A DNA stretch of 64,000 nt from Naegleria gruberi (lineage: Eukaryota). The translations under genes were made by a program, and so were the position numbers. Below the pieces are notes generated by a model. That model did not search any database. It worked only from the letters and a program-made list of their open reading frames with translations, and was not told the DNA's origin. Every line of letters begins with the position of its first letter. Positions within the stretch are counted from its first letter, which is position 1. This document shows positions 16,861 through 47,844 of the stretch, piece after piece. The stretch is taken from the NCBI GenBank assembly GCA_000004985.1, contig GG738853.1; one strand, given 5' to 3'.

Positions 16861-19800
16861 TCAAAAAAATAAACTCGTCATCACAACAACCAATGCCAAT
16901 AACAAGAAATTCACAGCAAACAACCTATTGCCACCACCAATTAAACTTGTGTGCTTCTTTGGAGATGTACTCACTGGTGGATTAGTACTTGATTGTGGAG
17001 TTGTCTCTGCAGTCAAATCAACAGCAAATTTAGTTGTATGATCACAGGCACACGTAACAACAGAATTGTCATAATCGATACTTGCTAGTTTACATCCTGA
17101 TGAACTCCACATCAATTTTTGTTCATCATAATATTTACATACAAGTTGTTTTTGCATGGCTGATTTACTAACCAAAACCTTCAATGTGAATTTTAGTTGA
17201 ATTGGTTTTGTAAGATTGGTTAATGCTAGAGCTTGTCCAGAACTGTAAAACTTGAGGTCCACCTGGTCAGAAACAAGATTTGTCATAGCTCTACGTCTTG
17301 ATGATGTCTTGTAGGAATATTTAACAAGACTGATGGCTGCCATTGATGAAGAATCCTTATAAATGGAAGAAATGTCAGTGGAAATGTCATCATAGACAAA
17401 GGTTGTTCCTCCTGATGATTTTAACACACTTGATATGTTAAATGATGAAACAGAAATGTTAAAAGATGAAGATTGAATATGGAGACTTGTCAAAGCTGAT
17501 GTGTTGGTTTCCACTGGATTGATGCTCATTACAAGGACAGAAGCAATGTTAGAAATTAAACTTTCGGCCTTACTTTCTGAACCATATTCATAAATATTAG
17601 AAATGATACTGACAGTAGATTGTGTTTCTTCAGTGGAAAGTTTGACTTGGGTTGAACCATTTTGTAACTTTTGGGACATGTCTGTGAGGAATGAGTCAAG
17701 CTTGGTAGAGACACTTTCCAGAGCTGTCTTGTCAACAGTTGGTGATGAAGTAACAGTTTCAAATATCTTTAAAACTTGTTGAGAATTATTGGTGTCAATG
17801 GAAAGAGTATTCACTAATTGTGTACTAACAAGTGATGAACTTGATTCATCGTAGAAGGCAACAATCTTTTCTTCACTTGACAATGAGCTGATTCTTGTAG
17901 AAAGCTCTTGACTTGTACCAGAGAATGCACTAATAATAACACTTCCACCTCTCAGCGTGTTGACATTTCCAGTGGAATCTTTTACAAACATCACTAATGG
18001 AATTGAGGATTGCTTGGTGAAGGGCAGTATTGTAGTGGCGTTTGGATACTGAGAATATTTTGTCAAGACAATATTTTCGTCCTTACTATTCACAAATCCG
18101 AATGCATATTGAAGTGGTGATATCTTTGAAGAGGCCAACCATGGTTTAGAGGAGAGTGTAAATGTTTGTGTGAGAGCAAAGCCGCTTGTTGGACTAATTG
18201 TGAAATTATTCTCAGATGCGTACGCTTTCGTCTGACCTTCCAGATAGAAACTACAATCCTCATTTGTATAACCACTATCACATTGACAATTGTTTTGATT
18301 TACACAAATTCCATTACCTGAACAAGATTTCGTCGAGTTGTACACAATTCCAAAACAAGAATGATCAGTGACTCTAGTTATTGGTCCTCTGGTTTCTACA
18401 ATAAGTTCTTGAATAGCTCTAAAACGATGTGCTTCAGAAACATCTTGATATTGATATTCCAACAAATGCCAAGAACCATATTTTGAAGGGAAGCCAACAT
18501 TTGCATAGTGACAATTTTCAACCAAGCTCAAATTAGCATACATTCTGTAGTACTTTTTGTAAATATCATACATTTTGATATCTCTATTCATGGCAATATA
18601 CTTATCTGTGGCTCCTGAGGTTTCATATCCACTGGCAATGGCCGAATATTCAGCTACAGAACTACCACTTTCATACATTCCTAGTGTAATATTATAGGAT
18701 TTTGCAACTTGAAGCTGCTGTTCAAGCATTGATTTAGTGGAAGCAAATTCATCATCACACTTTTTGAAAAGTGTATTCAAATCGGAAATGGCAACCAAAG
18801 TTCCTGAAGATTCCAAGCCACATCCGAAATAACCTGTCACTGTTAGCATAATATTGGAATGAGATTTGTAAAGATCTTGATAAGATAATATTCTAGTAGA
18901 AGTTATCGGCATAAGAGTAAAGGAAGCTGCAACAAGAGTCAATCTATTGCTTTCACTACCGAATACACTCTTCCAAATAGTAATAATTTCTTTAGAACGT
19001 TTTGAATAGAACAAGTTTCTTGCTGCCAAGGAGTCTTTAGATAATCCCAATAATTTTCCTTGCTCTTCACAATATTTACCACTATCAAAGAGTGTATTCC
19101 ATGCTTCGTTGGTGTATTCAAGATAAATTTGTACATCATTTCTCAGAGTTTGTTTAGCTAGGAGGGCAAATTGTCTGATATATTCATCGTTGGCACCATA
19201 AGGAATTGTAAACCACGGATTAGCTTTGAGAATATTACATAATTGAATCATGTATTCGTGAGCAACACCTCTTCCCATTGGTAAAGTAGATGGTGTAATT
19301 CTATCTTCCCATGTAATAATTCCTTTTTCCATAGTCCATGGCATGAATCTAATGGTCTTGAAATTTTCCAATCTCTTTAAAAAGAGTGGATGGAATGGAT
19401 TATCTTGATAGGTATTTTCAAAACCATCCATTACAATTCTTATATTTCTGATAGGATTATTTGGATTGGTTTCTTTAATTTTCATAAAGACACCATTGTC
19501 ACGAACAAGGGAAAGTGTGACTTTAATTTTCATATATCCTTTCTGGTTATTCTCAATAATTGTAGAATCGAATCCAAAGTCTAATTGACCATTTCCTTCA
19601 TAGAAAACATGGTAGATTCCTCCTGGCCATTTCTGTTGGATATCTCTCAACATTAGAGTTACTAATTGCTTTCCTTGTGCAATACTAGCTGGATAGCCAT
19701 CTGATCTTAGTTTGATTTCATTATTATAACTCCAAATATATATGCTATTCATTCCTTCCAAATCTTGGAGAATCCAAGCCCTGGCTTGTTTCATCAAATC

Positions 19801-22800
19801 AACAAAGGTCCATTGAGGAGAATAATCTACAACGCTATTCACATTCACACCAAGTTTTGATCCATCATTTGGTGAATTTGCCTTGATGGTACAGCTACTT
19901 CGTGAGTCCATTCTATATCCACTATGACATGCACAAGTACTGTTAAGGCAAATACCATTTGCACATCCCAGAGAAGGACACTTCAAACAGGCTCTACTTG
20001 TTGGATATTTCTTACAATCGATTTCACATTTTCCATTCACAAATGAGTAGCCGTAATCACAGACACAGTTTGTGGAATTGGTAGCACAATAACCAACTCC
20101 ATTACAATTACAATCAATGGAACAATCACTTCCTGTAAAACCTCTATAACAACTACACTTGTTATAATCAATACAGTTTCCATTATAGTTACATTTTGAA
20201 TCACAAGTAAATAAGGTGCATCCATAGCCGTAATATCCAGTTTGGCAGTGACATGTATAGACTGCATAAAATCCTTCTGTATGATTGAAAAGACAATTAC
20301 CTTTTCCTCCACATTGATATGTGCATCTGTAACTGTTAATATAATTGATTATCTCACAATTGGTTCCATTGTAGCCAAAGAAACAGTGGCAAGAGTCTCT
20401 GGAATCTGACAAGGCATTTGCAGCACAAACACCATGATTATTGCAGTTATCTTTACAAGTGGATGGCTTTTCATTCCAATTACAAACACTCATTGAATCT
20501 ATATAGTTTTGATAGGCAACATATTTTGGAGAAGATGAGGATGATAAGTCAGAATCTGATGATTCAATCAATCCCCAACATCCGTACTTGGAAAAGACAG
20601 ATGTGGATGTAAAATGATTGTAGGCACTTAGTTTAACTCCTGGTGCAATATTAGTTATGTTGGAGAGGTAGTATGTAAGGGCTTGTTTCATTCTTGGGTC
20701 TCTGTGAATGGTCATTGATAAATCTGTCAATTCTGTATTACCAGTATCAGTCAAAGATGAAAAATCTGGTCCACCTTCATAGAAAGCAAGTTCCATTCCA
20801 GGAGAGGATTGATTTACAATCTTGTATGTGCTTAAAAGAGCATTTCTGGAACTTGCAATGGCTGTATGAATAATAGATCCATAGAATTCCTCAAGACTGA
20901 CCAGGGAATTATCTGCCTTCTTCAAACTATCGCTCATATATGGAGCAATGGCCACAACATTGAAAGATTGATAGTAATTTCCTTCGCACAAGTAGAAAAT
21001 CTCCAAAGGGCCAGTCCAAGCTGCTTGAGCAGCAAATACCAATTTGATTCTCCTGTGATGTGATGCTCCAAACACTCCTCTGATAATATCTGCATATCTC
21101 TTGGCAGTCTTGATGTGATAACAGATTCTAGCAACTTCATAAGAACTGTAATAGTTTTGAAGTTTGGTCAATTTCATTCCTTCAATAACTCCCATTTGTT
21201 GAGCGTAACTTCCACAAGCACCTGAGGCCCAACATTCATTGCCAATTTCAATGTAGGCAGTAACATCTGGTCTGAGATAATCTCTCACATAGGTTGCCCA
21301 ATTTTCAATATATCTATCAGTGGCTCTGTGAGGTAAATTGAACCATGGATTATTTCCAAGCATATTACACAAGAGCACTTGCATTTCCATACTTACTCCT
21401 GTTTTTAGTCTGAAGGTGTAATAGGAATTGAGAGTTCTATTCTCCCAATCATAGTCTTTATCGACACCAATATTAGACCAAGGCATAAATCTAATAATTT
21501 GGTACTTTTTCAATTGTTCCAAAAAGAGAGGATGGAATGGGAAATCTTCATAGGTTTGCTCATATTTAGCCTCAAATATTCTCACATTTCTGATGGGATT
21601 CAATGGATTGGTTCTCAAAATCTTGTAAAAGACACCATTATTCATTTCAGTCTTGTGATTGTATTGGAGTTCAATTCTACCTGCATCTCTTCTCAATATT
21701 TTCTGATCTTCAAACTGGAATTCTAAAACGCCATCACCATCATAGAGGCAAATATACTTTCCATTTGGGAAGTGAGCTGCCACATCACGAACTGCAAAAG
21801 TTGCTACATTTTTAGTTATCTCCAAATATTGAGGATATCCATTTTCATCCAGTGGTACACTTTCTTGGTCATCCTCTGCCCATCCAGTACCATAGACAAA
21901 TTTCTGGACAATCCACTTTCTGGCTCTTCTTTGAATATCTATGAAAGTTACTTCTCGAGACCAATCTGCCAAACCATCAATATTGACGCCAAATTTGGTT
22001 GTATTGGAGGCACAATCTTGATATTTTGGAACTGTTATGTTACAATTTGCTCCAGAAAAACCATCAAAGCAGTGGCATGATCCATTATGGCAAACACCAT
22101 ACTTACAATCAGTACATGGTAAACGAATAGGTTTTGGAATATCGTCTGATGTGAATGGAAGACTACCATTTCCTCCTTCCAACCAAGTAAGCACAGCTCG
22201 GTATTTTGGTACAGTTTGTGGATCCTGTAGAAGACTTTCCATCACTGCTTGATAGCCACATCTACCACCTCCTCCCAAGCATCTATCTATCTTTTCCACA
22301 ATATTATTCAGAATCATTAATCCACCTCCCATTCTATGCCAACGTTTCATTACATCAACAACCATATCCTCAACAATTGGTTGTCTGAGAGCCTCAATGG
22401 AAATATCCTCTAGTCTTTGTTCCAATGGTGCTAGATCTGTCTTTTTCCATCTATTTGCCCAACCAGGTGCATGAATTCTCAAGCCTGCATCGTATAGTAT
22501 TAATGGAATTTTCAATTTGAAAGCAACTCTATTTAACAAATAGATCCAATCTATTTCGTCCTTGTAAATTTCTTGTCTGAGTAAATTGAGAACATCATCT
22601 ACTGTGTAATTGACTGAAAGGTTGACATCATAACCATTTCCATAATACTCTATACCAGTACCAACATTTCCACTCACTGCAAAAGCATCAAATAAGCTCA
22701 AGTCATCACTTGAATAGAGTGATAATACACTGTCGTAATAGGCAGGTATCATTGTAGAGAGGATATACTTGCATCGAGTATCATTCAGACCGAATACTGC

Positions 22801-23829
22801 TTTGAACGTATTGATTAATTGAATGTTCAAGTTTCTATTATTTCCACCCCAGCCCTTATCAGCTGATTGTTCAACATGTATTGTGAGAGAGGTATTTAAA
22901 TTATCTCTCACATAGGAAGCAATATGCATAATATGATCACTACTGCATGCATTTGGTATTGAAATCCAAATATCCTTAGCCAAATAATTTCCTAATTCTA
23001 CAATATATTCAATAGAAACCATTGCTTGTCCGTGTTGAGTGTAAAAAGTAGCAGGTCTTTTATCGGCCCATTCCTTATCACAATTTGTGATGGAATTTCC
23101 ATAACTCCTTCCAATCATCCATGAGGAGAATCTCAATACTGAAAATGGTTCAATAGCTCTGAGAAAGTCTGTGGAAAATGTTGAGGTTACATTCTCCTCC
23201 CTTGCCTCCTTCAAAATAACATTGTAAACATTAGGCTCTGTTACAATTAGTACTATACCCTTAGTAGAGGTATTCTGTACTGAAAATTCAAATCTATGAC
23301 TATTGACTTGTCTAACATTGGTTGCATCTCCTAAAATTGAAAAGTTTCCACTTCCTTCAAAAGTCAAAATATAATCACCTGTTGGATACTTTCCCAAAGT
23401 ACCCAATTCTGTTTGATAGCCATAACGTCTCTTATTGTATTTATTTTGAAATCCGAGAGGATAACCATCTTGTGACCAATTTGTTGTGATGGTTCCTTCA
23501 AAGTAATACGTTTTCCATTCATCAAGTGATCCAACAGGTCTCCACTCTCTTGCATGTTTAAATCTATTGGTAAATACCCACTGAATCATTTCATAATCGA
23601 TTGGTCCTAAATTAATTCCCAACATGTGTCTTGCTTCATCTCCTCGGAAGAGTAAATTTGGAGCACTTGCAAGTACTGAATGATGATGATGTAGTGTTAT
23701 TGTTGTTGTTAGTATTGTTATTATTAAGGAGAAGAGAAGACAATTAATAATTTTAGAAAATACTCGTACTGATGATGATGAATCAAGAGGAGAATACCTT
23801 CCCGATGATTCGAGGACAAAGACTTTCAT
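16861..23829 (-). CDS. A 2,322-aa secreted or type-I membrane protein. It has an N-terminal signal anchor, three copies of a ~450-aa domain (GVN(V/I)..xDxxxW.F.DxxxxARxW ... NP.NPIRN(I/V)RI ... FHPLFL..L....IRFMPW ... NE(A/C)W), clusters of EGF-like or tenascin-type Cys-rich repeats, an S/T-rich mucin-like stalk, a GPS/GAIN autoproteolysis motif (CACDHTTKFAV) and one C-terminal TM helix.
   Basis: This is a single uninterrupted ORF with an ATG at 23827-23829. I read the domain repeats and motifs from the translation. The NE(A/C)W motif is reminiscent of the NEP motif of clan GH-A glycosidases, but that is speculation. Confidence 0.75.
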   Translation of the reverse strand: MKVFVLESSGRYSPLDSSSSVRVFSKIINCLLFSLIITILTTTITLHHHHSVLASAPNLLFRGDEARHMLGINLGPIDYEMIQWVFTNRFKHAREWRPVGSLDEWKTYYFEGTITTNWSQDGYPLGFQNKYNKRRYGYQTELGTLGKYPTGDYILTFEGSGNFSILGDATNVRQVNSHRFEFSVQNTSTKGIVLIVTEPNVYNVILKEAREENVTSTFSTDFLRAIEPFSVLRFSSWMIGRSYGNSITNCDKEWADKRPATFYTQHGQAMVSIEYIVELGNYLAKDIWISIPNACSSDHIMHIASYVRDNLNTSLTIHVEQSADKGWGGNNRNLNIQLINTFKAVFGLNDTRCKYILSTMIPAYYDSVLSLYSSDDLSLFDAFAVSGNVGTGIEYYGNGYDVNLSVNYTVDDVLNLLRQEIYKDEIDWIYLLNRVAFKLKIPLILYDAGLRIHAPGWANRWKKTDLAPLEQRLEDISIEALRQPIVEDMVVDVMKRWHRMGGGLMILNNIVEKIDRCLGGGGRCGYQAVMESLLQDPQTVPKYRAVLTWLEGGNGSLPFTSDDIPKPIRLPCTDCKYGVCHNGSCHCFDGFSGANCNITVPKYQDCASNTTKFGVNIDGLADWSREVTFIDIQRRARKWIVQKFVYGTGWAEDDQESVPLDENGYPQYLEITKNVATFAVRDVAAHFPNGKYICLYDGDGVLEFQFEDQKILRRDAGRIELQYNHKTEMNNGVFYKILRTNPLNPIRNVRIFEAKYEQTYEDFPFHPLFLEQLKKYQIIRFMPWSNIGVDKDYDWENRTLNSYYTFRLKTGVSMEMQVLLCNMLGNNPWFNLPHRATDRYIENWATYVRDYLRPDVTAYIEIGNECWASGACGSYAQQMGVIEGMKLTKLQNYYSSYEVARICYHIKTAKRYADIIRGVFGASHHRRIKLVFAAQAAWTGPLEIFYLCEGNYYQSFNVVAIAPYMSDSLKKADNSLVSLEEFYGSIIHTAIASSRNALLSTYKIVNQSSPGMELAFYEGGPDFSSLTDTGNTELTDLSMTIHRDPRMKQALTYYLSNITNIAPGVKLSAYNHFTSTSVFSKYGCWGLIESSDSDLSSSSSPKYVAYQNYIDSMSVCNWNEKPSTCKDNCNNHGVCAANALSDSRDSCHCFFGYNGTNCEIINYINSYRCTYQCGGKGNCLFNHTEGFYAVYTCHCQTGYYGYGCTLFTCDSKCNYNGNCIDYNKCSCYRGFTGSDCSIDCNCNGVGYCATNSTNCVCDYGYSFVNGKCEIDCKKYPTSRACLKCPSLGCANGICLNSTCACHSGYRMDSRSSCTIKANSPNDGSKLGVNVNSVVDYSPQWTFVDLMKQARAWILQDLEGMNSIYIWSYNNEIKLRSDGYPASIAQGKQLVTLMLRDIQQKWPGGIYHVFYEGNGQLDFGFDSTIIENNQKGYMKIKVTLSLVRDNGVFMKIKETNPNNPIRNIRIVMDGFENTYQDNPFHPLFLKRLENFKTIRFMPWTMEKGIITWEDRITPSTLPMGRGVAHEYMIQLCNILKANPWFTIPYGANDEYIRQFALLAKQTLRNDVQIYLEYTNEAWNTLFDSGKYCEEQGKLLGLSKDSLAARNLFYSKRSKEIITIWKSVFGSESNRLTLVAASFTLMPITSTRILSYQDLYKSHSNIMLTVTGYFGCGLESSGTLVAISDLNTLFKKCDDEFASTKSMLEQQLQVAKSYNITLGMYESGSSVAEYSAIASGYETSGATDKYIAMNRDIKMYDIYKKYYRMYANLSLVENCHYANVGFPSKYGSWHLLEYQYQDVSEAHRFRAIQELIVETRGPITRVTDHSCFGIVYNSTKSCSGNGICVNQNNCQCDSGYTNEDCSFYLEGQTKAYASENNFTISPTSGFALTQTFTLSSKPWLASSKISPLQYAFGFVNSKDENIVLTKYSQYPNATTILPFTKQSSIPLVMFVKDSTGNVNTLRGGSVIISAFSGTSQELSTRISSLSSEEKIVAFYDESSSSLVSTQLVNTLSIDTNNSQQVLKIFETVTSSPTVDKTALESVSTKLDSFLTDMSQKLQNGSTQVKLSTEETQSTVSIISNIYEYGSESKAESLISNIASVLVMSINPVETNTSALTSLHIQSSSFNISVSSFNISSVLKSSGGTTFVYDDISTDISSIYKDSSSMAAISLVKYSYKTSSRRRAMTNLVSDQVDLKFYSSGQALALTNLTKPIQLKFTLKVLVSKSAMQKQLVCKYYDEQKLMWSSSGCKLASIDYDNSVVTCACDHTTKFAVDLTAETTPQSSTNPPVSTSPKKHTSLIGGGNRLFAVNFLLLALVVVMTSLFF

Positions 23830-24395: not shown

Positions 24396-27086
24396 ATGAC
24401 TAGAATAACACCTCACAGCGATCCATTGGTATGTATTGGTGTCCGTAGTAGTAATACTCATCTCATTTCACACACACTGTATCACCTTTTTGATGTTCGC
24501 CTCATTCTCTCTCTCTTGAAACAATAGGAACTTTATCACCAAACAGCTTGTTCAATTCACTCTGGAGAAGTGCAACAAGAACATATTGACTCTCCAAAAA
24601 TTAAACAACGAAAGGAAAGAATATGTTCTGGGTTGTTTTCAATGAAGATTTCCATCACGCTCATAATTTGCCTCTTGGTTATTTGTACTTCAATTTTCAC
24701 ATGGCTTTCATCGTATGTGGGCTCTTTGAATGCCCTGGATGCTCTCTCGATGGATGTCATTGAGAAGGTTGGTGAGAAGGTTAAGGTTTTCCTGAATGGT
24801 GAAATTAGTCCAGCTGCTTCACTTGCCAAGGTTATGGCTTCAGATTACAATAATGGATTAGTAGATAATGTTCCTCCATTGTCTTATTTATTCGATAAGA
24901 ATAATATCTATTACCCATCAGCAATTGGATTGTTTTTTCCGGATCAAATTACAACCTATTTCAATTTGACAATCTTTCCAGGAGGAGTTCCAACACAGAG
25001 CTTCTCAATTTACATCAAACCAAAGGGATATATTGGTGTAGAACATTGGTATGCAAATGAAACAGATGGTTCCTTAATTGGCATGATTCAAAATCAGACA
25101 GTTCCCTTTGTCATTCCATCACTTGCCTACTGGGTCACAAGTTTCAAGTATTTCGACTTGTACAAAACCGATGCTGTGTATGGTGACCCCTATGTTGTGG
25201 TAAATTCTACTGCATGTATTTATTATTCTGTTAAATTGTACAATAGAACCTTATTAGCAAAGGGAGTGAAAAAGACAGTTGGCATTTCAAAGGTGAATGT
25301 TTCACTATTGAATATTGAAAAATATTTAAAGAAAGTAACAGTATTGGGAAGAGGTTATGTGTTAGTGTCAGAGACTACGGATTTTGTTATTGGTGGTTCA
25401 ATTAATACCACAGCAGCTGATAGCAAATCTCGTGTGAAAATGTTCGAGCTGACTGAGAGAAATTCTGGCAAGCTGATGAAAGAATTGGCAGGCAAATATG
25501 GTACAATTTCAAATACACCAACAACTACTGAAATCAACAGCATGGGAATTGATTATATTGTGAAGAGAATGGACTTTGTTTTGGAAAATATGAAATGGAA
25601 TTTATTTTTGGTTATTTATAAGGAAGATTTAACTAAGGTAACTAATATCAATACTGCTATTTCAGCAGGTGTTGCTGTTGCTATTCTGCTTATTGGTATC
25701 ATTTTGAGTATGATTGTTGGTTATGTCATTACTCGTCCTTTGACATATTTGAAAAAGCAATTTGCCTTAATTAAGAAATTTGATTTGGAATTGGTCCAAT
25801 TCAATTCCAGTTCATTCAAGGAAGTGAATAGTATTTACAAGGATCTTTTCAATATGGTGAGTTGGCTGAACGATTTCAAGTCCTTCCTTCCAGAATCCAT
25901 CTTTCTTCAACTTTCTAATATTGAGGAAGAAGGAAAGCCAAAACCATCTGTTCAGGAAACCTCACATGATATGAAAAAACACGATCCACATCATAATATA
26001 CATGCTACTTACAGTTCTCACTCAATAGACCATACAGCAACAGATAATTCTTCCAGTAATTCAATGAGATCACTGATTGCAAGTAAATTAGGCAAAACAG
26101 GACTATTTAAACTTGGTTTACAAATGAAGAATGTGAGTGTCATTTCAATAATGATCAATCCTGAAGGATTGGGGAATAATCCAGATACCATCACCAAAAT
26201 CTTTTCCAGAATTGCCTCTGGATTATCAGCCCTCTCAAAAACATTGAAAGCAGATCTTCAAATCACCTCCATTCATGAATATCAATTATCATTTGTCGAT
26301 TCTTTTTCCAAGAAGAAACCTAATCTCGTTGCTGTCGAATGTGCTATCAAGGTTTCCAAAGTACTTGATAATGTTTTGACTTGTTATTCAGAACTTGATC
26401 TTTCCCAAGGAAACCCAATATTCTCAATTGGTATCAGTTCTGGTAAGGCAAATGTTGGTAATTTGGGAACAAGTAATTTGAGATACTATTCGATTGTGGG
26501 TCCATGTTGTACAAATGCTAAAACTCTTGCTACCATTGGCTCTATTTATCATGCCAAGATTCTTGCAGATGGAAATACCATCACAGATGAAGCCAAACCA
26601 TTCTTTGTGAGTAGACCAATAGATAGATTATTACTCGGGCCAAGCAGAAGTTCAGAAAAAGACATTTCGACTGTCTATGAAGTGTTTAAGGAAAATAATT
26701 ATGAAAATGATGAATGGCTCTATGAATTAGAACAACAAAAGAAGAATTTAAAGTACAAGGATTTCGAAAGAGCTTTCCAAATTTTTGACTTGGTGAAGGA
26801 AAATAAGATTGAACCATCAGAAGTGATGCAAAAGTTATACGAATCGATAGATATTCTTAATGGCCATTTATTGACCAATCCAGAAGACTCTGTTGTTACT
26901 AGTCATTTGGTTAAAGTATTTGAGTATTTCACTAGAGAAGGTGTATCATCTTTTGGAGCATTACAAATGATTCTCAATTATCATACACAAGTGAACCAAA
27001 ATATGAAATCTTATTCTACAAGTGGAGTGAGTGCTCAAAAGGCTAGTGACTTTGAAATAACCAATTACACCTTTAACAGCTATTAA
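24396..27086 (+). CDS. Single-pass receptor-like protein with an extracellular sensor domain, one TM helix (~aa 390-415) and an intracellular class-III nucleotidyl-cyclase homology domain whose catalytic residues are degenerate. The architecture resembles Dictyostelium ACG. Model: join(24396..24428, 24528..27086).
   Basis: ORF 24570..27086 has an internal ATG at 24642, preceded by a short exon MTRITPHSDPL (24396-24428) and a 99-nt GTATGT...AATAG intron. The cyclase-like region reads IGISSGKANVGNLGTSNLRYYSIVGPCCTNAKT. The metal-binding Asp positions are replaced (ISIMINPEG for FSDIVGFT; SIHEY for IGDAY). Confidence 0.6.
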
Positions 27087-27460: not shown

Positions 27461-29162
27461 TTACATGTTGAAGGATAATTGTTCCCAAGGACCAACAGCA
27501 GTTCTATTGACAACAATTTGTCCACTTGGTTCAACACAGACATAGGTATTGTGATTTGACTTCAAAGCAATTTTACCATTTCCGTGCAATTCAACAGTGA
27601 ATTGTTCCCAAGGTCCAACAGCATCTCTGTTTGCAACCAACAAACCACTTGGTTCAGCACACAATAACTTACGATGAGCAGATCTGAAAACATTCTTTCC
27701 ACTATGACTCTCAACAGTAAATTTTTCCCAAGGACCAATGGCATCTCTATTGGCAACCATTGAGTGATTGGATTCAGCACACAATAATTTACCATGATTA
27801 TGTCTGAATGAGATGGATTGATTTGGAGCAAGGGTGAATTGGAATTGTTCCCAAGGTCCCAAAGCATCTCTATTAGCAACAACCAAACCACTTGGTTCAG
27901 CACATAAGAATTTACCATGAGCAGACTTGAAAGCAACATTGCTACCAGATTGAGCAAGTGTAAATTGTTCCCAAGGACCCAAAGCATCACGATTAGCAAT
28001 AACTTGACCAGAAGGTTCAGCACAGACATACTTGCCATGAGCAGACTTGAAAGCATATTGAGAACCAGAAACGTGAATCAAAGTCAATGCTTCCCATGGT
28101 CCATTGGCATCTCTGTTGGCAACAACTTGTCCAGATGGTTCACAACAGAGGAATTTGAAATGAGCTGAACGAAGATTGGCCATCAATGTACGACCACCAG
28201 TTGTAGAACTCACTTGTGGTTGATAAGAAGTTGGTTGAGTATAAGTACTTGATGGAACAGAAGGATAAGTGGAAACATTCATAGTTGGCATGGTTGAAGT
28301 TGGAACAGTTGGATAAGTAGAAACATTCATATTTGGATATGAGTTACTAGTAACTGTGAAATTGGCATTTGGATATGTTGACACATTCATTGAACCAGTA
28401 CTGTTTGGATATGAAATATTCATAGAAATTCCACCAGTTGATGATGGTACATAAGATGGATAATTTGGAGTGATGGTATTTTGTGGATATGAAGTTGTTG
28501 ATGAATAAACATTTGGAGTGATGGTATTTGGTGGATATGAAGTTGGAGTTGTGGTTGAATAAACAGTTGTGGTTGTGGTAGTATTCGATGGAACTGAAGG
28601 ATAACCATAACCAGTGGTGGTTGGATAAGTGGAAACGTGCATCATATTGTTATTTCCATAACTTCCATATGGTCCAGTATAGCCAGTTCCTTGATAACGC
28701 ATTCCTCCACCAATAACGAAAAGATAGGCATTGATGAATTCAAACATGTTAACCTTCTTGTTATGATCACGGTCAACCATTTTGAACAAGTGTCTAATAG
28801 TTTCATTTACGAAATTAAATTATTAGAATTACTATCATCATCCATTATAACTAATAAAACTTACTTGGATTCTTCTTTTGTCAATCCAAGATTACGAACT
28901 GCCTTCTTAAATTCCTTCTTATTCAAAGTTCCGCTGTGATCCTTATCATATTGATAGTAAATCATTTGTGCTTGAGAAACAAGTTGTTGTTGTTGTCCAA
29001 CAAGATGTGGAGGCTATTCATCATCAATTCATTAAATTAATTTCGATATCATCATCACGAAGAAAATAAATTTACAATTTGCGCGCCAAAAAAAACTTAC
29101 GATTTGAAAACCAGCTGGAATCCAAGTTGGTTGTGTTCCGTTGACCCAAATATTCATCATCA
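27461..29162 (-). CDS. Three-exon gene: complement(join(27461..28802, 28874..29013, 29100..29162)). It has two N-terminal EF-hands (DKDHSGTLNKKEF; DRDHNKKVNMFEF), a Tyr/Thr/Ser/Pro/Asn-rich linker and about six fascin-like (beta-trefoil) repeats with the recurring motif (F/L)xCAEPSGxVVANRDAxGPWEQF.
   Basis: ORF 27461..28789 is extended by two GTAAGT...AG introns (71 nt and 86 nt) to the ATG at 29160-29162. I checked the frames manually. ORF 27562..28056 is an antisense artefact. Confidence 0.7.
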
Positions 29163-42513: not shown

Positions 42514-45500
42514 ATGACCACTCATTCCTTGGGAAGTAATGGAAGCTATGCTGTTGAGGTTGATGATCACACACCGAATATATCGGCCTCAATAGGGTTG
42601 GCCGGTATGCCAAGAGGATCAGCCTCAGTACTTTCAGCAGATAATCAAACTTCACTCACAGCTGGAGCAGCAGCTTCACTGTTAAACGACGGCGCCTCTA
42701 TGTGGAATTCATTCGAGGAGAGTGCCACTAACTTTATGTTAAATATTTACGAGAAGACAAAAATTCACCAAACAAATTGGTATAACTTTACCTATAACCT
42801 AGTATTGTACATTTATCTCCTTTGGACAATGATGTTTCTTCCCGGATTGGCAGACGAAGAATATAATTGGGGAGAATATTCGCATTGGATCTTTAAGGCA
42901 GCAAATTATCCAGTTTCTCTATCCCTAAACTTGGTTTCGTATGAAGTCATTATTGTGATATTTTGCTGTTTTGTCCTTCTAATATGTGTCTACTTTATTC
43001 TGTTTTTTGTTGGCTATAGGGCAAGCTTACTAGCAAACAAGCACTGGAAAAAGATCAAGCTTGCCATAAGAATCATTCATGGATTTCTCACACTTACTTC
43101 CTTAATTTATACCTATGTGTTTGGTGCCTTTATAGATTGCAATTATGGAACCTCTGTAAATTTAGATGGTTATGATAGACCTGTTGAAGTATTGAGGAGG
43201 CACCCAACCATTGCCTGCAGTGGTGCAGTTAATTCAACTCTCATTTCTGTCGGTTCTATATTCTTCATGTTACTACTTGTTATTCAGTTGATCTCTGTTT
43301 TAACAATGTCGGAGGATAATCCGAGTGGCAAGAATGCCTTTGCAACAGACAAGGTCTACTACTTGTTTCCATTCATTGCAACACAATGCATTTACATTAT
43401 ACTAGTTTGTGCAATACCTCCAACCTATAACTATGTCAAGCCGGTTATTTACCTTGCCTTATGTATTCTACATGTGCCCTACCATTTGTGGTTGTTACCT
43501 TATTTTAAAAGAGTGGAGAATACTCTCTTCTTTGGCTTTGTTGGTGCCAGATTGGGAGGAGCTGTTGGTTTTCTGGTCTCTAGCTTGGTCTCTACTGATG
43601 ATTCAAATTGGACTCTTGGTTTGGGCATGATGGGTCTCACGATTGGCCTTATGCTTGTATGCTTTGTAGTTTTTGTTGTTGCAGCAGAGATTTATATTGG
43701 TATTCTATACAGTTCTATCAGAAGAGGTGTTATTCAAACTATTAAGGTTTCGGTTGATTTTAGTCAAGCCCAAACAGTCAGATCCTCCATCGAAAGAGAA
43801 GCATCTGGTCTCTATCAAAAATTTGAAAAGGATGGTAAACTGAGAGCCTTCAACCTCTTCTTGAAATTCTCAATGAGATCAGGTAGAAAGGCTTTTGGAG
43901 ATTTTCAACTTTCTGATGTTGAAATTGCTCTTGCTTTGATTAAGGGTGTTTCATCTCAAAAGTGTGCCAATAATGTTGATATTCTGATTACCTCAGCGTT
44001 GGTTGTAGCTTACTTTTTACCAAACTTCACCAGTGTCATACTGGCAGGTGGTATTGTCAGAAAGGTTGCCAAGCTCAAGTCCAATCCATTGAAAAAGTAC
44101 ATTATTACCCAAAGAACAAAGGAAATTGAATTCCTCAGTGGAGAAGACTTGTCTGGTAAGAACATTATGGAAATTAAGAATATTATTGGAAGACTGGAAA
44201 AGAAGCAAGAATTGGTTCTCCTTCTTCACAAATCATTCTGGAAGGAAATGATCAATGAATCTTTAGAAATTACCAAGATTGAAACAATCAACAGAAAGAT
44301 TGCTGAATTGGTGCACTCTTGTCAAAGCTCTTATGATATTCTCATATCCAATTACAACAATGAAAAGTCAGTGATTAGATCATATGCCAGATTTGTTGAA
44401 GACTACAAGTTTGATCCAGAAAAAGCTCAAGAAATGTACCACGAAGCAAACATTATTGAAGAGGAAGAAGCTGTCAATAGAAGACATCAATTATCAAAAA
44501 CCTTAAAGAACAAGTATACATCCAATCGTGTAGTGCCACTTCCAAATCAATTCTCTGTAGCCTCTAATATTAGGGGAGGTGGTGGTGGTTTTGAAAGTGA
44601 AGATGAAGATAAGGGATACTTTGAAAAGATCGACATGAACAAGCAAGGCCACTCTTCTGACTCTAGATTAGATGACATGGACTTTGAAAATGAAAAGTTT
44701 GAAGGTGTAGAGGAAAACGCAGCCACAGCACAACAAAAGAAGGAATTTCTCTTTAGAACTGCACTTTCATCTTCCATGTATAATAAGCCTCAATTTATTA
44801 CCTTTGTTGTTTTTGCTTCAGTTTCATTGATCATACTAACAATTGGTCTTATCCTTGGATTGGTGTTCTCTACTGGTGTAACATCTGATATTGCTCTTTC
44901 AAATGATGTGTGTATTCCTGCTTCTGTTCCTCTCTCAGTTCTTATGTACATTAGAAAAAAGCAATTGCACGATAATATTAAGGAATACTCAATGTCATGG
45001 AATACAGAAAACACAGCCAGAGTAGATAAGCAATGTAACAAGCTCTCAAATCTGTATTCTATTGGTATGAATACTTTCTCTGAATCAGTCCGATCTGACT
45101 ATACTAGAGGCACCAGATTACTCAAACAACCTGTGTTGATTTATTCCTCAACAAATACTTCAGAATACACTGGTTACTCTACATCCAGAAATTCGACTAT
45201 TGCAGAAATTACAAAAGCATTGGTAAAAATGTGTAGTGCCTATGATAACTACTCAGAGGAAAGATATAAGCAAACAGTATCTGATTACAATTTTATGTTC
45301 CTTTATCAAAACAGAATAAGTTTTTCCTCATCTTATGAAAGCTTTTGCTCTGAATATCTGGACAGAAATGGAGAAAAATCCTCAACATACAGAACTATCT
45401 TTTTAATCTATTACATTTCCACAACAGCTTTATATATTCTTAGTGCCTTCTCAGTGATTGCATTCACTAGATACCACCTTACCTCACTGAATGATTCTAT

Positions 45501-47844
45501 CAAGTTGATAGGAAGTTCAATTTCAAAAGATAAGGTTGGTAAAATCTATCACAAGTTGGAAGGTAAAGTTGAGGAAGATCTACAAATAGGTTCAGATGGA
45601 TTCTTTTCCATGTTTGTTAAACCAAATAACTCTATTTCTATAATGGTTATTTTTATGATTTGTATTACAGCCATTTGCGTCACCTTGTTCTTTATTGAAA
45701 CGATCATTAATTCAAACAATTCCTCCATGGCCATTCAAAATATTCAATTCAGTGTAAATATTATGATGACTGCCCACAGAGTTGGTCTCAGATTGGGAGA
45801 ACTTTTCATTTTCAAATCTAAATTCCCTTCGACTCCTATGAATGATAGGCATTTAACTACAGATGATGAATTAGCACAATTCCACAAAGACAATAAGAAC
45901 CTAGCAAGCTTGATGCAGAGCTCGTGGTACTCTTTACTTTTTGGTACATCAGATAATGATAACGATAAGTTATTTGGAAAATATCCAGATATTGATCAAC
46001 TTATTCAAGGAACCTGCAAGAGTACATCAAACACAACATCCAATAGTACAACGTGTGTTGGTTTGGATGATTTGGTTTCATATTTGACAAGTTCTTCAGC
46101 CCTCTTTAATGAGGATGTCTTCTATGCCAGTTCTACCTTTAACCAATCAGATTTATTCACACGTATGGAATCCATCTATTCTGATGTAGATTTACTTGCC
46201 CAAAAGCTCGAAAGTTTGATTCAAATTTATTCCAAGTACAATTCTGTTCCTTCAATCACTATCACAATTGTTTTTGGAATATTGGGATATGCTTCATTGG
46301 TAACCGCTATTTGGTTCACTTCAAGATCTATGACATCTTTCTGGAGAGAATATCAACAATTAAGAATGATGTTGAGCTACTTTACACCTGAAGTATTGGA
46401 AGAGAATGAACAACTCAAGAACTTTGTTCTCTTCAAGTCATTGCCAGGTAGATTATCTGAACTATTCAAGAGTAAGAAATCATCAGGTGACACCTCCAAC
46501 AATGAAGACTCACATGTTAAAAGTATTCTTGAAGCTGCTGTAGATGGAGCTGTATTGTGTAATTCTCAATGTGAAGTTACCATTTTCAATCCTTCTGCTG
46601 AAAGATCATTTGGTTTCAAGAAGAGTGATATTATGGGTTTACCTATATACACACTCTTTGATGAATCAAGCCACACCAAGATGAGAAAGATCATATCTGG
46701 TATGTTAGCAAAGAGTGGTAATGATGGTGAGTCTATTGAGGTTGAATGTGTTCGTAAGAATCAAACAAAATTCCCAGCCAAGATTAATATCTTTTCAAGT
46801 AAGATTGGTTCTGACACTGTAATTGTCTCCTTTATTAAGGATATTACTCCTGAAAAGAAGCAAAATATGCTGTTGGAAGAAGAAAAGAAGAAATCAGATT
46901 CACTCTTGTTGAACATTTTACCAGAAGCTGTAGGTGTTCGTCTTAAGAGTGGTGAAACTTTTATTGCCGAAAAGTTCAATGATGTCACTTGTTTCTTCAG
47001 TGATATGGTTGGTTTTACAAGTATTTCATCCAATATGAGTCCAACTGATCTAGTTAAAATGTTAAATACTATTGTCAATGGATTCGACTCACTTACAGAC
47101 ACTTTCCATTTGGAAAAGATTAAGACAATTGGTGATGCCTATTTTTGTGTAGGTGGTATTCACGGTTCTGCAACTTCGGATCACCCTGAAAGAGTTCTTC
47201 GTTTTGCCATGGCCACATTCGCTGTAGTTCATGACTACAACCTTGAAAATTTGGCCAATAAGGAAAATTCAAATCCAAGTCTCCTTAATATACGCATAGG
47301 AATTAATACTGGTAGTGTTGTCGGTGGTGTTATTGGTACAAAGAAGTTTGCCTATGATATGTGGGGTGATACTATCAATGTTGCAAGTAGAATGGAATCC
47401 ACATCCTTGCCAGGAAGAATTCAAGTTTCCAGATCTACCTATGAAAGAGTATATGATATGGGTTATGAATTTGAGGAACGTAGAATTGAAGTTAAGGGTA
47501 AAGGAAGCACTCAAACCTACATGCTCAACAATATGTATCACAAGAATCCATTGGATGCAAATGGTTTCTCTAATGTTAATAATGTTGTTGTTACTGCTTC
47601 TGCTGCTGTTTCATTACCACCACAACCTTCCCAAGGCAATAACAGTACAAACAATCTTAACAATAATAGCATGGCCTACAATAACCAAACAAGTAATAAT
47701 GGAAGTGGAGATCATTTGGAAGAATCAGATGATGATGACGATTTGAGAAGATCATCCAATAATGTAGTTGTTCTTGGCCGCAATAGGAATCCACCAAGTC
47801 ATACAAGCCACACAAGTAGTGTAGATGATATCTTGATGGAATAA
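42514..47844 (+). CDS. A 1,776-aa polytopic membrane protein. It has about 9 TM segments in the N-terminal block and about 4 more in the middle, followed by a PAS domain (~aa 1330-1440) and a single class-III nucleotidyl cyclase catalytic domain. All catalytic residues are present and the specificity residues (Lys/Asp) are adenylyl-cyclase-type.
   Basis: The cyclase motifs are FSDMVGFTSIS, KIKTIGDAYFCVGG, IRIGINTGSVVGGVIG and YDMWGDTINVASRMES. The PAS-like block reads ILEAAVDGAVLCNSQCEVTIFNPSAERSFGF...IVSFIKDIT. This is an uninterrupted ORF. ORFs 43409, 44017 etc. are antisense or overlap artefacts. Confidence 0.8.
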   Translation: MTTHSLGSNGSYAVEVDDHTPNISASIGLAGMPRGSASVLSADNQTSLTAGAAASLLNDGASMWNSFEESATNFMLNIYEKTKIHQTNWYNFTYNLVLYIYLLWTMMFLPGLADEEYNWGEYSHWIFKAANYPVSLSLNLVSYEVIIVIFCCFVLLICVYFILFFVGYRASLLANKHWKKIKLAIRIIHGFLTLTSLIYTYVFGAFIDCNYGTSVNLDGYDRPVEVLRRHPTIACSGAVNSTLISVGSIFFMLLLVIQLISVLTMSEDNPSGKNAFATDKVYYLFPFIATQCIYIILVCAIPPTYNYVKPVIYLALCILHVPYHLWLLPYFKRVENTLFFGFVGARLGGAVGFLVSSLVSTDDSNWTLGLGMMGLTIGLMLVCFVVFVVAAEIYIGILYSSIRRGVIQTIKVSVDFSQAQTVRSSIEREASGLYQKFEKDGKLRAFNLFLKFSMRSGRKAFGDFQLSDVEIALALIKGVSSQKCANNVDILITSALVVAYFLPNFTSVILAGGIVRKVAKLKSNPLKKYIITQRTKEIEFLSGEDLSGKNIMEIKNIIGRLEKKQELVLLLHKSFWKEMINESLEITKIETINRKIAELVHSCQSSYDILISNYNNEKSVIRSYARFVEDYKFDPEKAQEMYHEANIIEEEEAVNRRHQLSKTLKNKYTSNRVVPLPNQFSVASNIRGGGGGFESEDEDKGYFEKIDMNKQGHSSDSRLDDMDFENEKFEGVEENAATAQQKKEFLFRTALSSSMYNKPQFITFVVFASVSLIILTIGLILGLVFSTGVTSDIALSNDVCIPASVPLSVLMYIRKKQLHDNIKEYSMSWNTENTARVDKQCNKLSNLYSIGMNTFSESVRSDYTRGTRLLKQPVLIYSSTNTSEYTGYSTSRNSTIAEITKALVKMCSAYDNYSEERYKQTVSDYNFMFLYQNRISFSSSYESFCSEYLDRNGEKSSTYRTIFLIYYISTTALYILSAFSVIAFTRYHLTSLNDSIKLIGSSISKDKVGKIYHKLEGKVEEDLQIGSDGFFSMFVKPNNSISIMVIFMICITAICVTLFFIETIINSNNSSMAIQNIQFSVNIMMTAHRVGLRLGELFIFKSKFPSTPMNDRHLTTDDELAQFHKDNKNLASLMQSSWYSLLFGTSDNDNDKLFGKYPDIDQLIQGTCKSTSNTTSNSTTCVGLDDLVSYLTSSSALFNEDVFYASSTFNQSDLFTRMESIYSDVDLLAQKLESLIQIYSKYNSVPSITITIVFGILGYASLVTAIWFTSRSMTSFWREYQQLRMMLSYFTPEVLEENEQLKNFVLFKSLPGRLSELFKSKKSSGDTSNNEDSHVKSILEAAVDGAVLCNSQCEVTIFNPSAERSFGFKKSDIMGLPIYTLFDESSHTKMRKIISGMLAKSGNDGESIEVECVRKNQTKFPAKINIFSSKIGSDTVIVSFIKDITPEKKQNMLLEEEKKKSDSLLLNILPEAVGVRLKSGETFIAEKFNDVTCFFSDMVGFTSISSNMSPTDLVKMLNTIVNGFDSLTDTFHLEKIKTIGDAYFCVGGIHGSATSDHPERVLRFAMATFAVVHDYNLENLANKENSNPSLLNIRIGINTGSVVGGVIGTKKFAYDMWGDTINVASRMESTSLPGRIQVSRSTYERVYDMGYEFEERRIEVKGKGSTQTYMLNNMYHKNPLDANGFSNVNNVVVTASAAVSLPPQPSQGNNSTNNLNNNSMAYNNQTSNNGSGDHLEESDDDDDLRRSSNNVVVLGRNRNPPSHTSHTSSVDDILME

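What the first reader, a model, noticed from the sequence alone, without database searches (positions are those of the whole stretch)
24396..27086. ACG-like single-TM receptor whose cyclase-homology domain has lost its catalytic residues (pseudo-cyclase).
The protein has the layout extracellular domain, one TM helix, cyclase-homology domain. However, the positions of both metal-binding aspartates and the Asn/Arg pair are substituted (ISIMINPEG; SIHEY; CCTNAKT). It is therefore predicted to be catalytically dead unless it heterodimerizes. It could act as a regulatory partner of an active cyclase, as in C1/C2 heterodimers, possibly the PAS-cyclase 15 kb downstream, or as a signalling scaffold.
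Basis: partly seen in the sequence, partly recalled or inferred. Interest (0 to 1): 0.5.

Follow-up and report, generated by a model that had tools for sequence, protein, structure and literature searches.

The report
Naegleria dCache receptor with dead cyclase domain
This gene encodes a two-pass membrane receptor of a Naegleria-type amoeba: its outside part has a bacterial-style dCache ligand sensor fold, and its inside cyclase domain keeps the fold but has lost every catalytic residue. It belongs to a conserved, uncharacterised family of such "pseudo-cyclase" receptors.

Summary
Bases 24396-27086 (+) encode an intact two-exon gene for an 863-aa protein. Its layout is N-terminal tail, TM1, about 316-aa extracellular domain, TM2, HAMP-like linker, Ser-rich spacer, cyclase-homology domain (CHD) and a helical C-terminus.

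All catalytic positions are substituted: Asp1→M553, Asp2→H594 (or E595, a one-residue ambiguity), Lys→I590, Asp/Thr→S666, Asn→T673, Arg→T677, Lys→G715.

The interpretation needs correcting in four ways:
- The organism is Naegleria-like, not Dictyostelium.
- The sensor has a dCache fold (Foldseek E 3e-9 to Mlp24/PctC), not CHASE.
- There are two TM segments, not one.
- Both halves of the active site are gone, so the protein cannot complement a partner as C1/C2 domains do. At most it could poison one.

The degeneracy is family-wide. There are at least 8-9 paralogue clusters in each of N. gruberi and N. lovaniensis, and the family is also present in Willaertia. Across 48 members there is no Asp at the Asp1 position. 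Canonical dCache(-HAMP)-CHD relatives exist, including one in Willaertia.

The likely function is a ligand receptor with a non-catalytic dimeric output. That function is inferred, not shown.

The parts
24396..24428 (+). Exon 1 (aa 1-11, MTRITPHSDPL), start codon at 24396
   Evidence: The N-terminus aligns with the N-termini of homologues P0002, P0004 and P0008.
24429..24527 (+). 99-nt intron, GTATGT...AG
   Evidence: Splicing keeps the frame into the long ORF. No RNA evidence is available.
24528..27086 (+). Exon 2 (aa 12-863 plus stop codon)
   Evidence: It is colinear with homologues and shows no frame breaks.
24648..24707 (+). TM1 / signal-anchor (aa 52-71). It is preceded by a basic KIKQRKER cluster, which suggests the N-terminus is cytosolic.
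   Evidence: Hydropathy scan; coordinates.
24708..25655 (+). Extracellular dCache-fold sensor domain (aa 72-387), carrying 7 N-glycosylation sequons
   Evidence: AF2 model pLDDT 72, pTM 0.75. Top Foldseek PDB hits are all dCache ligand-binding domains, such as Mlp24 6IOT at E 2.8e-9, PctC and Tlp1/3. Sequon count and conservation. Pfam dCache_1 is not detected in the query but is detected in the relatives P0143, P0133 and P0165.
25656..25730 (+). TM2 (aa 388-412)
25731..25928 (+). HAMP-like juxtamembrane segment (aa 413-478). It is the most conserved part of the family, at 59-69% identity.
   Evidence: It aligns colinearly with the segment of P0143 that hits Pfam HAMP at E 5.5e-5. There is no direct Pfam or PDB-profile hit. 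Identity values.
25929..26099 (+). Ser/Asn/His-rich low-complexity spacer (aa 479-535) between the HAMP-like output and the CHD. Canonical relatives lack it.
   Evidence: Family median length is 60 aa (34-81, n=28) with 20% Ser. Canonical relatives go from YVPAELV to Asp1 in about 24 residues, against 82 in the query.
26100..26708 (+). Degenerate class III cyclase-homology domain (aa 536-738)
26151..26153 (+). Codon for M553, at the position of metal-binding Asp1 (end of beta1)
   Evidence: In the family this column is never Asp (0/48) and is mostly K/R/T.
26274..26279 (+). Codons for H594-E595, at the position of the 'GD' metal-binding Asp2 (beta2-beta3 turn). The register is uncertain by one residue.
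   Evidence: H594 = Asp2 and by the DSSP turn. E595 = Asp2.
26490..26525 (+). S666...T673...T677 (YSIVGPCCTNAKT), at the positions of the substrate-specifying Asp/Thr, the Asn and the Arg of helix alpha4
   Evidence: All alignments agree. In the family, Asn is present in 4/48 and Arg in 1/48.
26709..27083 (+). Family-specific C-terminal domain (aa 739-863). It starts with the invariant DEW.YELE motif, is predicted as four helices plus two short strands, and has unknown affinity.
   Evidence: AF2 model. No significant Pfam or PDB-profile match.

Best explanation
The gene encodes a type-II-oriented, two-TM surface receptor of a Naegleria-like heterolobosean. It descends from a bacterial-type dCache-HAMP-class III (IIIb-like) nucleotide cyclase. 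The extracellular dCache-fold domain presumably binds a small-molecule ligand.

The intracellular cyclase-homology domain keeps the fold and the conserved beta4-beta5 'GNLG...R.Y..VG' hairpin, but every residue needed for metal binding, substrate recognition and transition-state stabilisation is gone. It therefore cannot make cAMP or cGMP, either alone or in a heterodimer.

Shown: domain identities, loss of catalytic residues, family-wide degeneracy and conservation, and the existence of canonical relatives.

Inferred: the dead CHD serves as a ligand-controlled dimerisation or scaffold module. Output would go through the family-specific C-terminal helical domain and/or the Ser-rich spacer, for example by partner recruitment or phosphorylation, rather than through a cyclic nucleotide.
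For: - Fold and homology of the CHD.
- Catalytic substitutions in the query.
- Family-wide degeneracy: Asp1 0/48, Asn 4/48, Arg 1/48, beta7-8 Lys 0/48. These columns sit at the 61st-88th percentile of variability, while structural motifs stay 75-100% conserved.
- Long-term retention: at least 8 paralogue clusters in N. gruberi, at least 9 in N. lovaniensis, and members in N. fowleri and Willaertia. The ORF is intact. Identity to the best homologue is 67% in the ECD, 69% in the HAMP-like segment and 57% in the CHD. This pattern indicates purifying selection on a non-catalytic protein.
- dCache fold of the ECD. Conserved glycosylation sequons.
- Canonical ancestor type: P0143, P0133, P0074, P0165 and Willaertia P0168 have the same general layout with a complete catalytic set and a short link from the juxtamembrane segment to the CHD.
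- A 34-81-aa Ser-rich insert separates the HAMP-like segment from the CHD only in the degenerate family. This argues against rigid mechanical coupling to a catalytic dimer.
Against: - There is no experimental or expression data.
- Dimerisation could not be modelled.
- The output partner is unknown, and the C-terminal domain has no recognisable homologue.
- An acidic pair (D/E-E) at the Asp2 position is kept in about two thirds of the family. It could hint at a residual metal or ligand site, although the query itself has H-E.
- The gene is subtelomeric, about 24 kb from a (CCCAAA)n chromosome end. It also departs from the family consensus at two semi-conserved positions (H594 for D/E, T677 for K). 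This particular copy may therefore be under relaxed constraint.
Confidence: 0.6

Rival explanations
1. Dominant-negative or modulatory heterodimer partner. The dead CHD pairs with the CHD of a catalytically competent dCache(-HAMP)-CHD paralogue. Because each class III active site needs residues from both monomers, this would silence both sites, letting a second ligand input turn cAMP production down.
For: Canonical relatives with the same general architecture exist in the same clade (Willaertia P0168). One Cache-type bacterial-like cyclase is reported in Naegleria (PMC4822843). The beta4-beta5 hairpin that forms the dimer interface in canonical cyclases is the best-conserved part of the degenerate CHD. 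From my own knowledge, not verified here: engineered catalytically dead ESAG4 acts as a dominant negative in T. brucei, and Leishmania RAC-B was reported to down-regulate RAC-A. only confirms that the RAC-A/B family is cited.
Against: There are at least 8-9 dead paralogue clusters per genome against apparently one or few canonical partners. The flexible 34-81-aa spacer is absent from canonical relatives, so the two CHDs would be held at different distances from the membrane. There is no co-localisation or co-expression evidence.
Confidence: 0.22
2. Nucleotide- or ligand-binding sensor domain. The CHD no longer catalyses but still binds ATP, GTP, a cNMP or another small molecule at the dimer interface. 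This would resemble the class III cyclase-like ATP-binding protein of P. aeruginosa (PDB 6YII) or degenerate GGDEF receptors.
Against: In the query, all canonical base-, ribose- and phosphate-contacting side chains are replaced (I590, S666, T673, T677, G715). The beta1-alpha1 phosphate loop reads MINPEG, with a proline. The corresponding columns vary freely across the family.
Confidence: 0.08
3. One reading: a C1/C2-like regulatory half that completes an active site with another cyclase, possibly the PAS-cyclase 15 kb downstream.
For: A canonical cyclase gene lies at 42514-47844 on the same strand.
Against: Both complementary halves of the site are missing, so no composite site can form. The PAS-cyclase CHD matches the family CHD profile only weakly (E 7e-6). 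Five unrelated genes intervene. Chance co-occurrence is about 12%. The neighbourhood is not conserved around the N. fowleri homologue P0003.
Confidence: 0.02
4. A decaying subtelomeric gene copy with no function, that is, a pseudogene in the making.
For: The gene lies about 24 kb from the telomere repeat. The query is more degenerate than the family consensus at H594 and T677. No syntenic orthologue was found.
Against: The 863-codon ORF is uninterrupted, with a conserved splice-dependent N-terminus. The ECD and HAMP-like segments are 67-69% identical to the nearest N. gruberi homologue. All family-invariant structural residues are kept.
Confidence: 0.06
5. Still an active cyclase that uses non-canonical residues.
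For: None beyond the intact fold.
Against: Seven of seven catalytic positions are substituted. The Asp1 position is K/R/T/M across the family.
Confidence: 0.02

Closest known systems
Bacterial-type dCache_1-HAMP-class III (IIIb-like) adenylate/guanylate cyclases. Examples here are the metagenomic P0143, P0133, P0165 and P0074, Willaertia magna ABK040_005169 (P0168), and the single Cache-containing 'bacterial-type adenylate cyclase' reported in Naegleria (PMC4822843).
   Same: The same order of TM1, dCache-fold sensor, TM2, HAMP-like segment, CHD and short helical C-terminus. They align colinearly through the HAMP-like segment and CHD. The CHD profile-profile match is E 1.4e-24.
   Different: These relatives keep FsD..GFT, K..GD, T..G..VN.AsR and KGK and hit Pfam PF00211. 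The query family has lost all of these motifs, is invisible to Pfam, and has a 34-81-aa Ser-rich insert before the CHD.
C2 domain of human soluble adenylyl cyclase (ADCY10; PDB 4CLF and related entries), and by extension tmAC C2 and the sGC subunits
   Same: This is the best sequence-profile match (E 1.8e-15, aligned to sAC residues 290-419). It is likewise a CHD lacking the two metal-binding Asp residues.
   Different: sAC C2 retains the complementary Lys, Asn and Arg and completes one active site with C1. The query lacks these as well, so it is not a complementary half-site.
P. aeruginosa class III adenylyl cyclase-like ATP-binding protein (PDB 6YII)
   Different: It is a soluble bacterial transcriptional regulator with no dCache sensor and no membrane anchor. 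Nucleotide binding by the query is unlikely given its substitutions. I did not read the paper.
Dictyostelium ACG and trypanosomatid receptor adenylate cyclases (ESAG4/GRESAG4, Leishmania RAC-A/B)
   Different: From my knowledge, ACG has a CHASE sensor, the trypanosomatid receptors have a periplasmic-binding-protein-like sensor, and all have one TM and active CHDs. The query has a dCache fold, two TMs and a dead CHD.
Degenerate GGDEF/EAL receptors such as LapD and FimX (functional analogy only)
   Different: They belong to a different superfamily branch and are bacterial. They sense c-di-GMP. No such ligand is indicated here.

Membership tests
Class III nucleotidyl cyclase catalytic domain (CHD, Pfam PF00211) | CHD fold (beta-alpha-alpha-beta-beta-alpha-beta core with the beta4-beta5 arm) | tested here: met
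Class III nucleotidyl cyclase catalytic domain (CHD, Pfam PF00211) | Significant sequence similarity to the family | tested here: met
   Met at profile level only: E 1.8e-15 vs sAC and hhalign E 1.4e-24. The Pfam HMM on the single sequence gives no hit, even at E<=10.
Class III nucleotidyl cyclase catalytic domain (CHD, Pfam PF00211) | Two metal-binding aspartates (beta1 end; beta2-beta3 'GD') | tested here: not met
   M553 and H594 (or E595).
Class III nucleotidyl cyclase catalytic domain (CHD, Pfam PF00211) | Transition-state Asn and Arg in helix alpha4, and the beta7-8 Lys | tested here: not met
   T673, T677, G715.
Class III nucleotidyl cyclase catalytic domain (CHD, Pfam PF00211) | Substrate-specifying pair (Lys/Glu plus Asp/Thr/Cys) | tested here: not met
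   I590 and S666.
Class III nucleotidyl cyclase catalytic domain (CHD, Pfam PF00211) | Head-to-tail dimer and cyclase activity | not testable with these tools
   No multimer prediction or biochemistry is available here.
dCache_1 extracellular sensor | Long N-terminal helix followed by two PAS-like alpha/beta modules | tested here: met
   AF2 secondary structure. 109 PDB matches at E<=1e-3, and the 50 listed are dCache-type sensor domains, e.g. Mlp24 at E 2.8e-9 and TM 0.70.
dCache_1 extracellular sensor | Match to Pfam PF02743 | tested here: not met
   No hit for the query ECD. Relatives P0143, P0133 and P0165 hit above threshold (E 6e-21 to 6e-22). P0074 and P0132 hit below threshold.
dCache_1 extracellular sensor | Flanked by two transmembrane helices, with the signalling domain C-terminal | tested here: met
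   Hydropathy peaks at aa 52-71 and 388-412.
dCache_1 extracellular sensor | Amino-acid-binding AA_motif (Y121, R126, W128, Y144, D173 of PctA; PMC8915833) | tested here: inconclusive
   By eye only. The query reads PSLAYWVTSF, with no Arg two residues before the aromatic pair. No rigorous alignment to PctA was made (for the motif definition).
HAMP domain | Match to HAMP profiles; helix-connector-helix of about 50 aa directly after TM2 | tested here: inconclusive
   No Pfam hit and no HAMP structure found with the family profile. However, the segment aligns colinearly with the stretch of P0143 and P0165 that does hit PF00672 (E 5.5e-5 and 7.6e-4).
Dictyostelium ACG-type receptor cyclase | CHASE-type sensor, single TM, active CHD (my knowledge of ACG) | tested here: not met
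   dCache fold, two TM segments, dead CHD. All close homologues are heterolobosean.
Complementary half-site CHD (tmAC C1/C2, sAC C1/C2, sGC alpha/beta) | Retains one of the two complementary residue sets | tested here: not met
   Both sets are substituted.

The most novel reading that the evidence does not exclude
Naegleria and its relatives run a sizeable, previously unrecognised repertoire of dCache-fold chemoreceptors. Published surveys found Cache in only one Naegleria protein. In these receptors the output would not be a cyclic nucleotide. Instead, a catalytically dead cyclase dimer plus a family-specific C-terminal helical domain would act as a ligand-gated scaffold for other effectors. 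That would make them a eukaryotic 'pseudo-cyclase receptor' class, analogous to pseudokinase receptors or to LapD-type degenerate GGDEF receptors. Weaker matches in metagenomes (ankyrin-PDC-degenerate CHD proteins) suggest the class may extend beyond Heterolobosea.
Probability: 0.25. Interest if true: 0.65.

Novelty: new variant of a known kind. Interest (0 to 1): 0.42.

Why it matters
Naegleria genomes are noted for a very large cyclase complement, at least 81 genes, and this is usually read as a large cAMP/cGMP signalling capacity. This result shows that a distinct sub-family cannot make cyclic nucleotides at all. That sub-family has at least 8-9 paralogue clusters per genome and is annotated only as 'predicted protein' or 'guanylate cyclase domain-containing'. 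Counts of 'cyclases' therefore overstate catalytic capacity.

It also shows that dCache-fold sensors are far more numerous in these amoebae than Pfam-based surveys report (a single protein). The family gives a natural series, from canonical relative to dead family, for studying how a receptor enzyme becomes a pseudoenzyme. For N. fowleri, a lethal pathogen, surface receptors with bacterial-type ligand pockets and no human counterpart are potentially interesting as sensors of the environment or host.

Tried and rejected
- Pfam on the whole protein and on four separate segments gave nothing relevant. There were only chance-level PPR and EF-hand hits in the C-terminus.
- The C-terminal domain profile vs PDB and Pfam gave only weak calmodulin or designed-repeat hits, driven by an 'EFKEAFSLF'-like helix with no Ca-binding loop. 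I rejected these as chance.
- The profile of the HAMP-like segment vs PDB gave no HAMP hit.
I re-ran it with the exon-2 translation.
- Orthology and synteny: P0001 is not on record. The N. fowleri P0003 locus has entirely different neighbours. No positional orthologue could be established, so lineage-specific changes cannot be polarised.
- Literature searches for pseudo-cyclase, inactive CHD and the 6YII paper found nothing in the held library. This is weak evidence of absence.
- A second family copy in the window: none found.
- A salt bridge replacing the metal site: a basic residue at the Asp1 column co-occurs with an acidic residue at the Asp2 column (21/25 vs 11/23, Fisher p 0.013). The test is not corrected for phylogeny, and the query itself has M/H. 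I kept this only as a remark.
Full report
**Gene model and layout**

The long ORF listed at 24570-27086 extends upstream in frame to 24528. A short first exon (24396-24428, ATG ACT AGA...) is joined to it by a 99-nt GTATGT...AG intron. The product is 863 aa. Exon 1 (MTRITPHSDPL) matches the N-termini of homologues (MTKVVPTS..., MPKISPET...), which supports the splice.

Hydropathy shows two membrane segments, aa 52-71 and 388-412. The first is preceded by a basic cluster and the second is followed by one. This gives an N-in/C-in topology with about 316 aa outside. Seven N-x-S/T sequons lie in the outside part, several conserved across the family, against four in 502 cytosolic residues.

**Source organism**

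The only close homologues among 5.8 billion proteins come from Naegleria gruberi, N. lovaniensis, N. fowleri and Willaertia magna, at 36-55% identity and full length. The window has about 35% G+C and begins with a (CCCAAA)n telomere-type repeat followed by an assembly gap. It is therefore the end of a chromosome of a Naegleria-like heterolobosean whose genome is not in the protein collection. It is not a dictyostelid.

**Is the C-terminal region a cyclase-homology domain?**

Single-sequence methods fail. Pfam gives nothing, even at E<=10, and phmmer against PDB gives only E 0.39 to Cya2. Profiles settle it:
- Nine family sequences give CyaB at E 3.1e-6.
- Forty-eight give human soluble adenylyl cyclase at E 1.8e-15 (best on its C2 domain), CyaB 7e-11, RhGC, AC8/AC9, Cya2, PAC and sGC.
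- hhalign against six canonical CHDs gives 99.6% probability and E 1.4e-24 over 199 columns.
- An AlphaFold2 model of aa 527-863 has pLDDT 90.2 and pTM 0.88.
- All 50 top Foldseek hits are class III cyclase catalytic domains (Cya2 E 6e-12).

**Catalytic residues**

Alignments to CyaB and sAC, to the window's own canonical cyclase, to close canonical relatives and profile-profile agree on the following:

| Canonical position | Query residue |
|---|---|
| Asp1 | M553 |
| Asp/Thr (specificity) | S666 |
| Asn | T673 |
| Arg | T677 |
| beta7-8 Lys | G715 |

The second metal Asp and the specificity Lys fall on H594 and I590 in the HMMER and hhalign alignments. The model's beta2-beta3 turn (I593-H594) fits that assignment. 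MAFFT and hmmalign shift the register by one, to E595 and T591. In no register is there an Asp.

**This is a family trait, not a private mutation**

A profile search of 1.84 billion representatives found about 70 full-length family clusters and 989 hits at E<1e-10. Named members give at least 8 clusters in N. gruberi, at least 9 in N. lovaniensis, at least 3 in Willaertia and at least 2 in N. fowleri.

Across 48 family CHDs:
- The Asp1 column is never Asp (K/R/T dominate).
- Asn is present in 4.
- Arg is present in 1.
- The beta7-8 Lys is present in none.

These columns rank at the 61st-88th percentile of variability. By contrast LFK.GL, IG..G, GN.G, R.Y..VG, L.D, RP and DEW are 75-100% conserved. 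Only the Asp2 position keeps a semi-conserved acidic pair (D/E in 32/48, followed by E in 35/48). The query has H-E there.

Identity of the query to its nearest homologue differs by region: 69% in the HAMP-like segment, 67% in the sensor, 57% in the CHD and 39% in the C-terminal domain. This is the signature of a pseudoenzyme kept under purifying selection.

**The sensor**

Published surveys report Cache in a single Naegleria protein (PMC4822843). They also report eukaryotic dCache_1 generally with a VWA insertion (PMC8915833). This family is neither, and it has evidently escaped HMM-based detection.

**Ancestry**

Metagenomic proteins P0143, P0133, P0074 and P0165, and Willaertia ABK040_005169 (P0168), combine an extracellular sensor, a juxtamembrane segment and a CHD. 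Pfam dCache_1 is detected in the four metagenomic proteins, and HAMP in P0143 and P0165. Only the CHD is detected by Pfam in P0168.

In all of them the CHD hits PF00211 and carries F.D..FT, DK.IGD, YT..GD.VN..(S/A)R and KGK. They align colinearly with the query from the segment after TM2 to the end of the CHD: KIKEFRLD ~ KIKKFDLE, and FHKYVPAELVRQL ~ FKSFLPESIFLQL.

The degenerate family differs in two ways. It has lost the catalytic set, and it has a 34-81-aa (median 60) Ser-rich low-complexity insert between the HAMP-like output helix and the CHD. Asp1 lies about 24 residues after YVPAELV in canonical relatives, against 82 in the query.

The C-terminal domain begins with an invariant DEW.YELE and is modelled as four helices plus two short strands. 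It has no significant match. Weak TPR hits follow the CHD in two relatives (P0133 and P0075), but I treat its nature as unknown.

**Mechanism**

From established knowledge of class III cyclases, each active site is built across a head-to-tail dimer. One subunit provides the Asp pair, and the other provides Lys/Asp(Thr), Asn, Arg and Lys. A subunit lacking both sets cannot complete a site with any partner. A heterodimer with a competent monomer would therefore have two defective sites.

What remains is either a non-catalytic output or an inhibitory (dominant-negative) partnership. I favour the non-catalytic receptor or scaffold reading, for three reasons:
- Dead paralogues are numerous relative to canonical ones.
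- The flexible spacer should uncouple the CHD from HAMP-type mechanical control.
- The family has its own conserved C-terminal domain.

None of this is shown experimentally.

**The downstream PAS-cyclase**

ORF 42514-47844 carries TPR_TmcB, PAS and a canonical CHD (Pfam E 7e-54) with every catalytic residue. It matches the family CHD profile only at E 7e-6. F-box, ankyrin, NHL/EGF and fascin-like genes separate it from the query gene. With at least 81 cyclase genes per genome and a genome of about 41 Mb (my knowledge), a second cyclase in a 64-kb window is expected about 12% of the time. The N. fowleri homologue P0003 has an unrelated neighbourhood. There is no evidence for a functional link.

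**Verdict**

The pseudo-cyclase call is right. The 'ACG-like', 'single-TM', 'CHASE-like' and 'rescued by heterodimerisation' elements are wrong or unsupported.

The gene is a new member, at most 55% identical to anything known, of an uncharacterised heterolobosean family of dCache-fold receptors with a dead class III cyclase domain. Degenerate cyclase-fold domains are a known phenomenon: sAC C2, the 6YII ATP-binding protein, and degenerate GGDEF domains. I therefore rate it a new variant of a known kind, of moderate interest.

Noticed in passing
window 1-~400 and 487-505; N-run 973-2156: The window starts with about 62 copies of CCCAAA (TTTGGG on the other strand), which is a telomere-type repeat. 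A short second block follows, then a 1184-base assembly gap. The window is therefore a chromosome end, and the pseudo-cyclase gene is subtelomeric, about 24 kb in. The listed ORF 960-2240 is an artefact of the N-run.
   Followed up: partly
window 42514-47844 (+): A 1776-aa protein with TPR_TmcB, PAS/PAS_9 and a fully canonical cyclase domain (FFSDMVGFT, KTIGDAY, YDMWGDTINVASR, KGKG).
   Followed up: partly
window 51921-63236 (-), continuing toward 63988: A DNA-PKcs homologue split over at least three ORFs, presumably by introns. Pfam domains found: N-terminal, CC1-2, CC3, CC5, FAT, PI3/4-kinase and FATC.
   Followed up: no
window 16861-23829 (-): A 2322-aa ORF with an N-terminal hydrophobic segment, two large repeated modules, many EGF-like Cys-rich repeats, a Ser-rich stalk and a C-terminal hydrophobic tail. 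It is probably a giant surface or adhesion protein. It is transcribed divergently from the receptor gene, with 566 bp between the two start codons.
   Followed up: no
window 27461-28789 (-): A protein with a Thr/Ser/Pro/Tyr-rich low-complexity N-terminus followed by repeated fascin/FRG1-like beta-trefoil units (Pfam E 1e-25 to 1e-30).
   Followed up: no
P0001 (N. gruberi, best hit to the query): The public 1272-aa gene model fuses an N-terminal fucosyltransferase (PF00852) to a family member that lacks TM1. This is probably a mis-merged gene model, not a real fusion.
   Followed up: partly
family CHD alignment A5, columns of query M553 and H594: A basic residue at the former Asp1 position co-occurs with an acidic residue at the former Asp2 position (21/25 vs 11/23; Fisher p 0.013, not corrected for phylogeny). 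A Lys/Arg-Asp/Glu salt bridge may have replaced the metal site in most members. The query has Met/His.
   Followed up: partly
P0168 (Willaertia magna ABK040_005169), ECD around '...NYYPHKRLWYVGALQ...': This canonical, catalytically complete relative carries a Y-x4-R-x-W-Y string resembling the N-terminal half of the dCache_1 amino-acid-binding motif. The degenerate family reads ...SLAYWV..., without the Arg. Loss of catalysis may have gone with a change of ligand.
   Followed up: no
P0073-P0156 (second tier), e.g. P0100, P0113, P0055: Metagenomic proteins match only the TM2/HAMP-like/CHD part of the profile. They have other N-termini (ankyrin repeats plus a PDC-type sensor), weak PF00211 scores and mostly non-canonical residues at the catalytic columns. 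Degenerate CHD receptors may be widespread in uncultured eukaryotes.
   Followed up: partly
L001 (JGI metagenome contig carrying P0074): The canonical dCache-CHD relative sits next to an ABCG-type transporter, an RCC1/WD40 protein and a hybrid histidine kinase. That gene content looks eukaryotic (amoeba-like) rather than bacterial.
   Followed up: no
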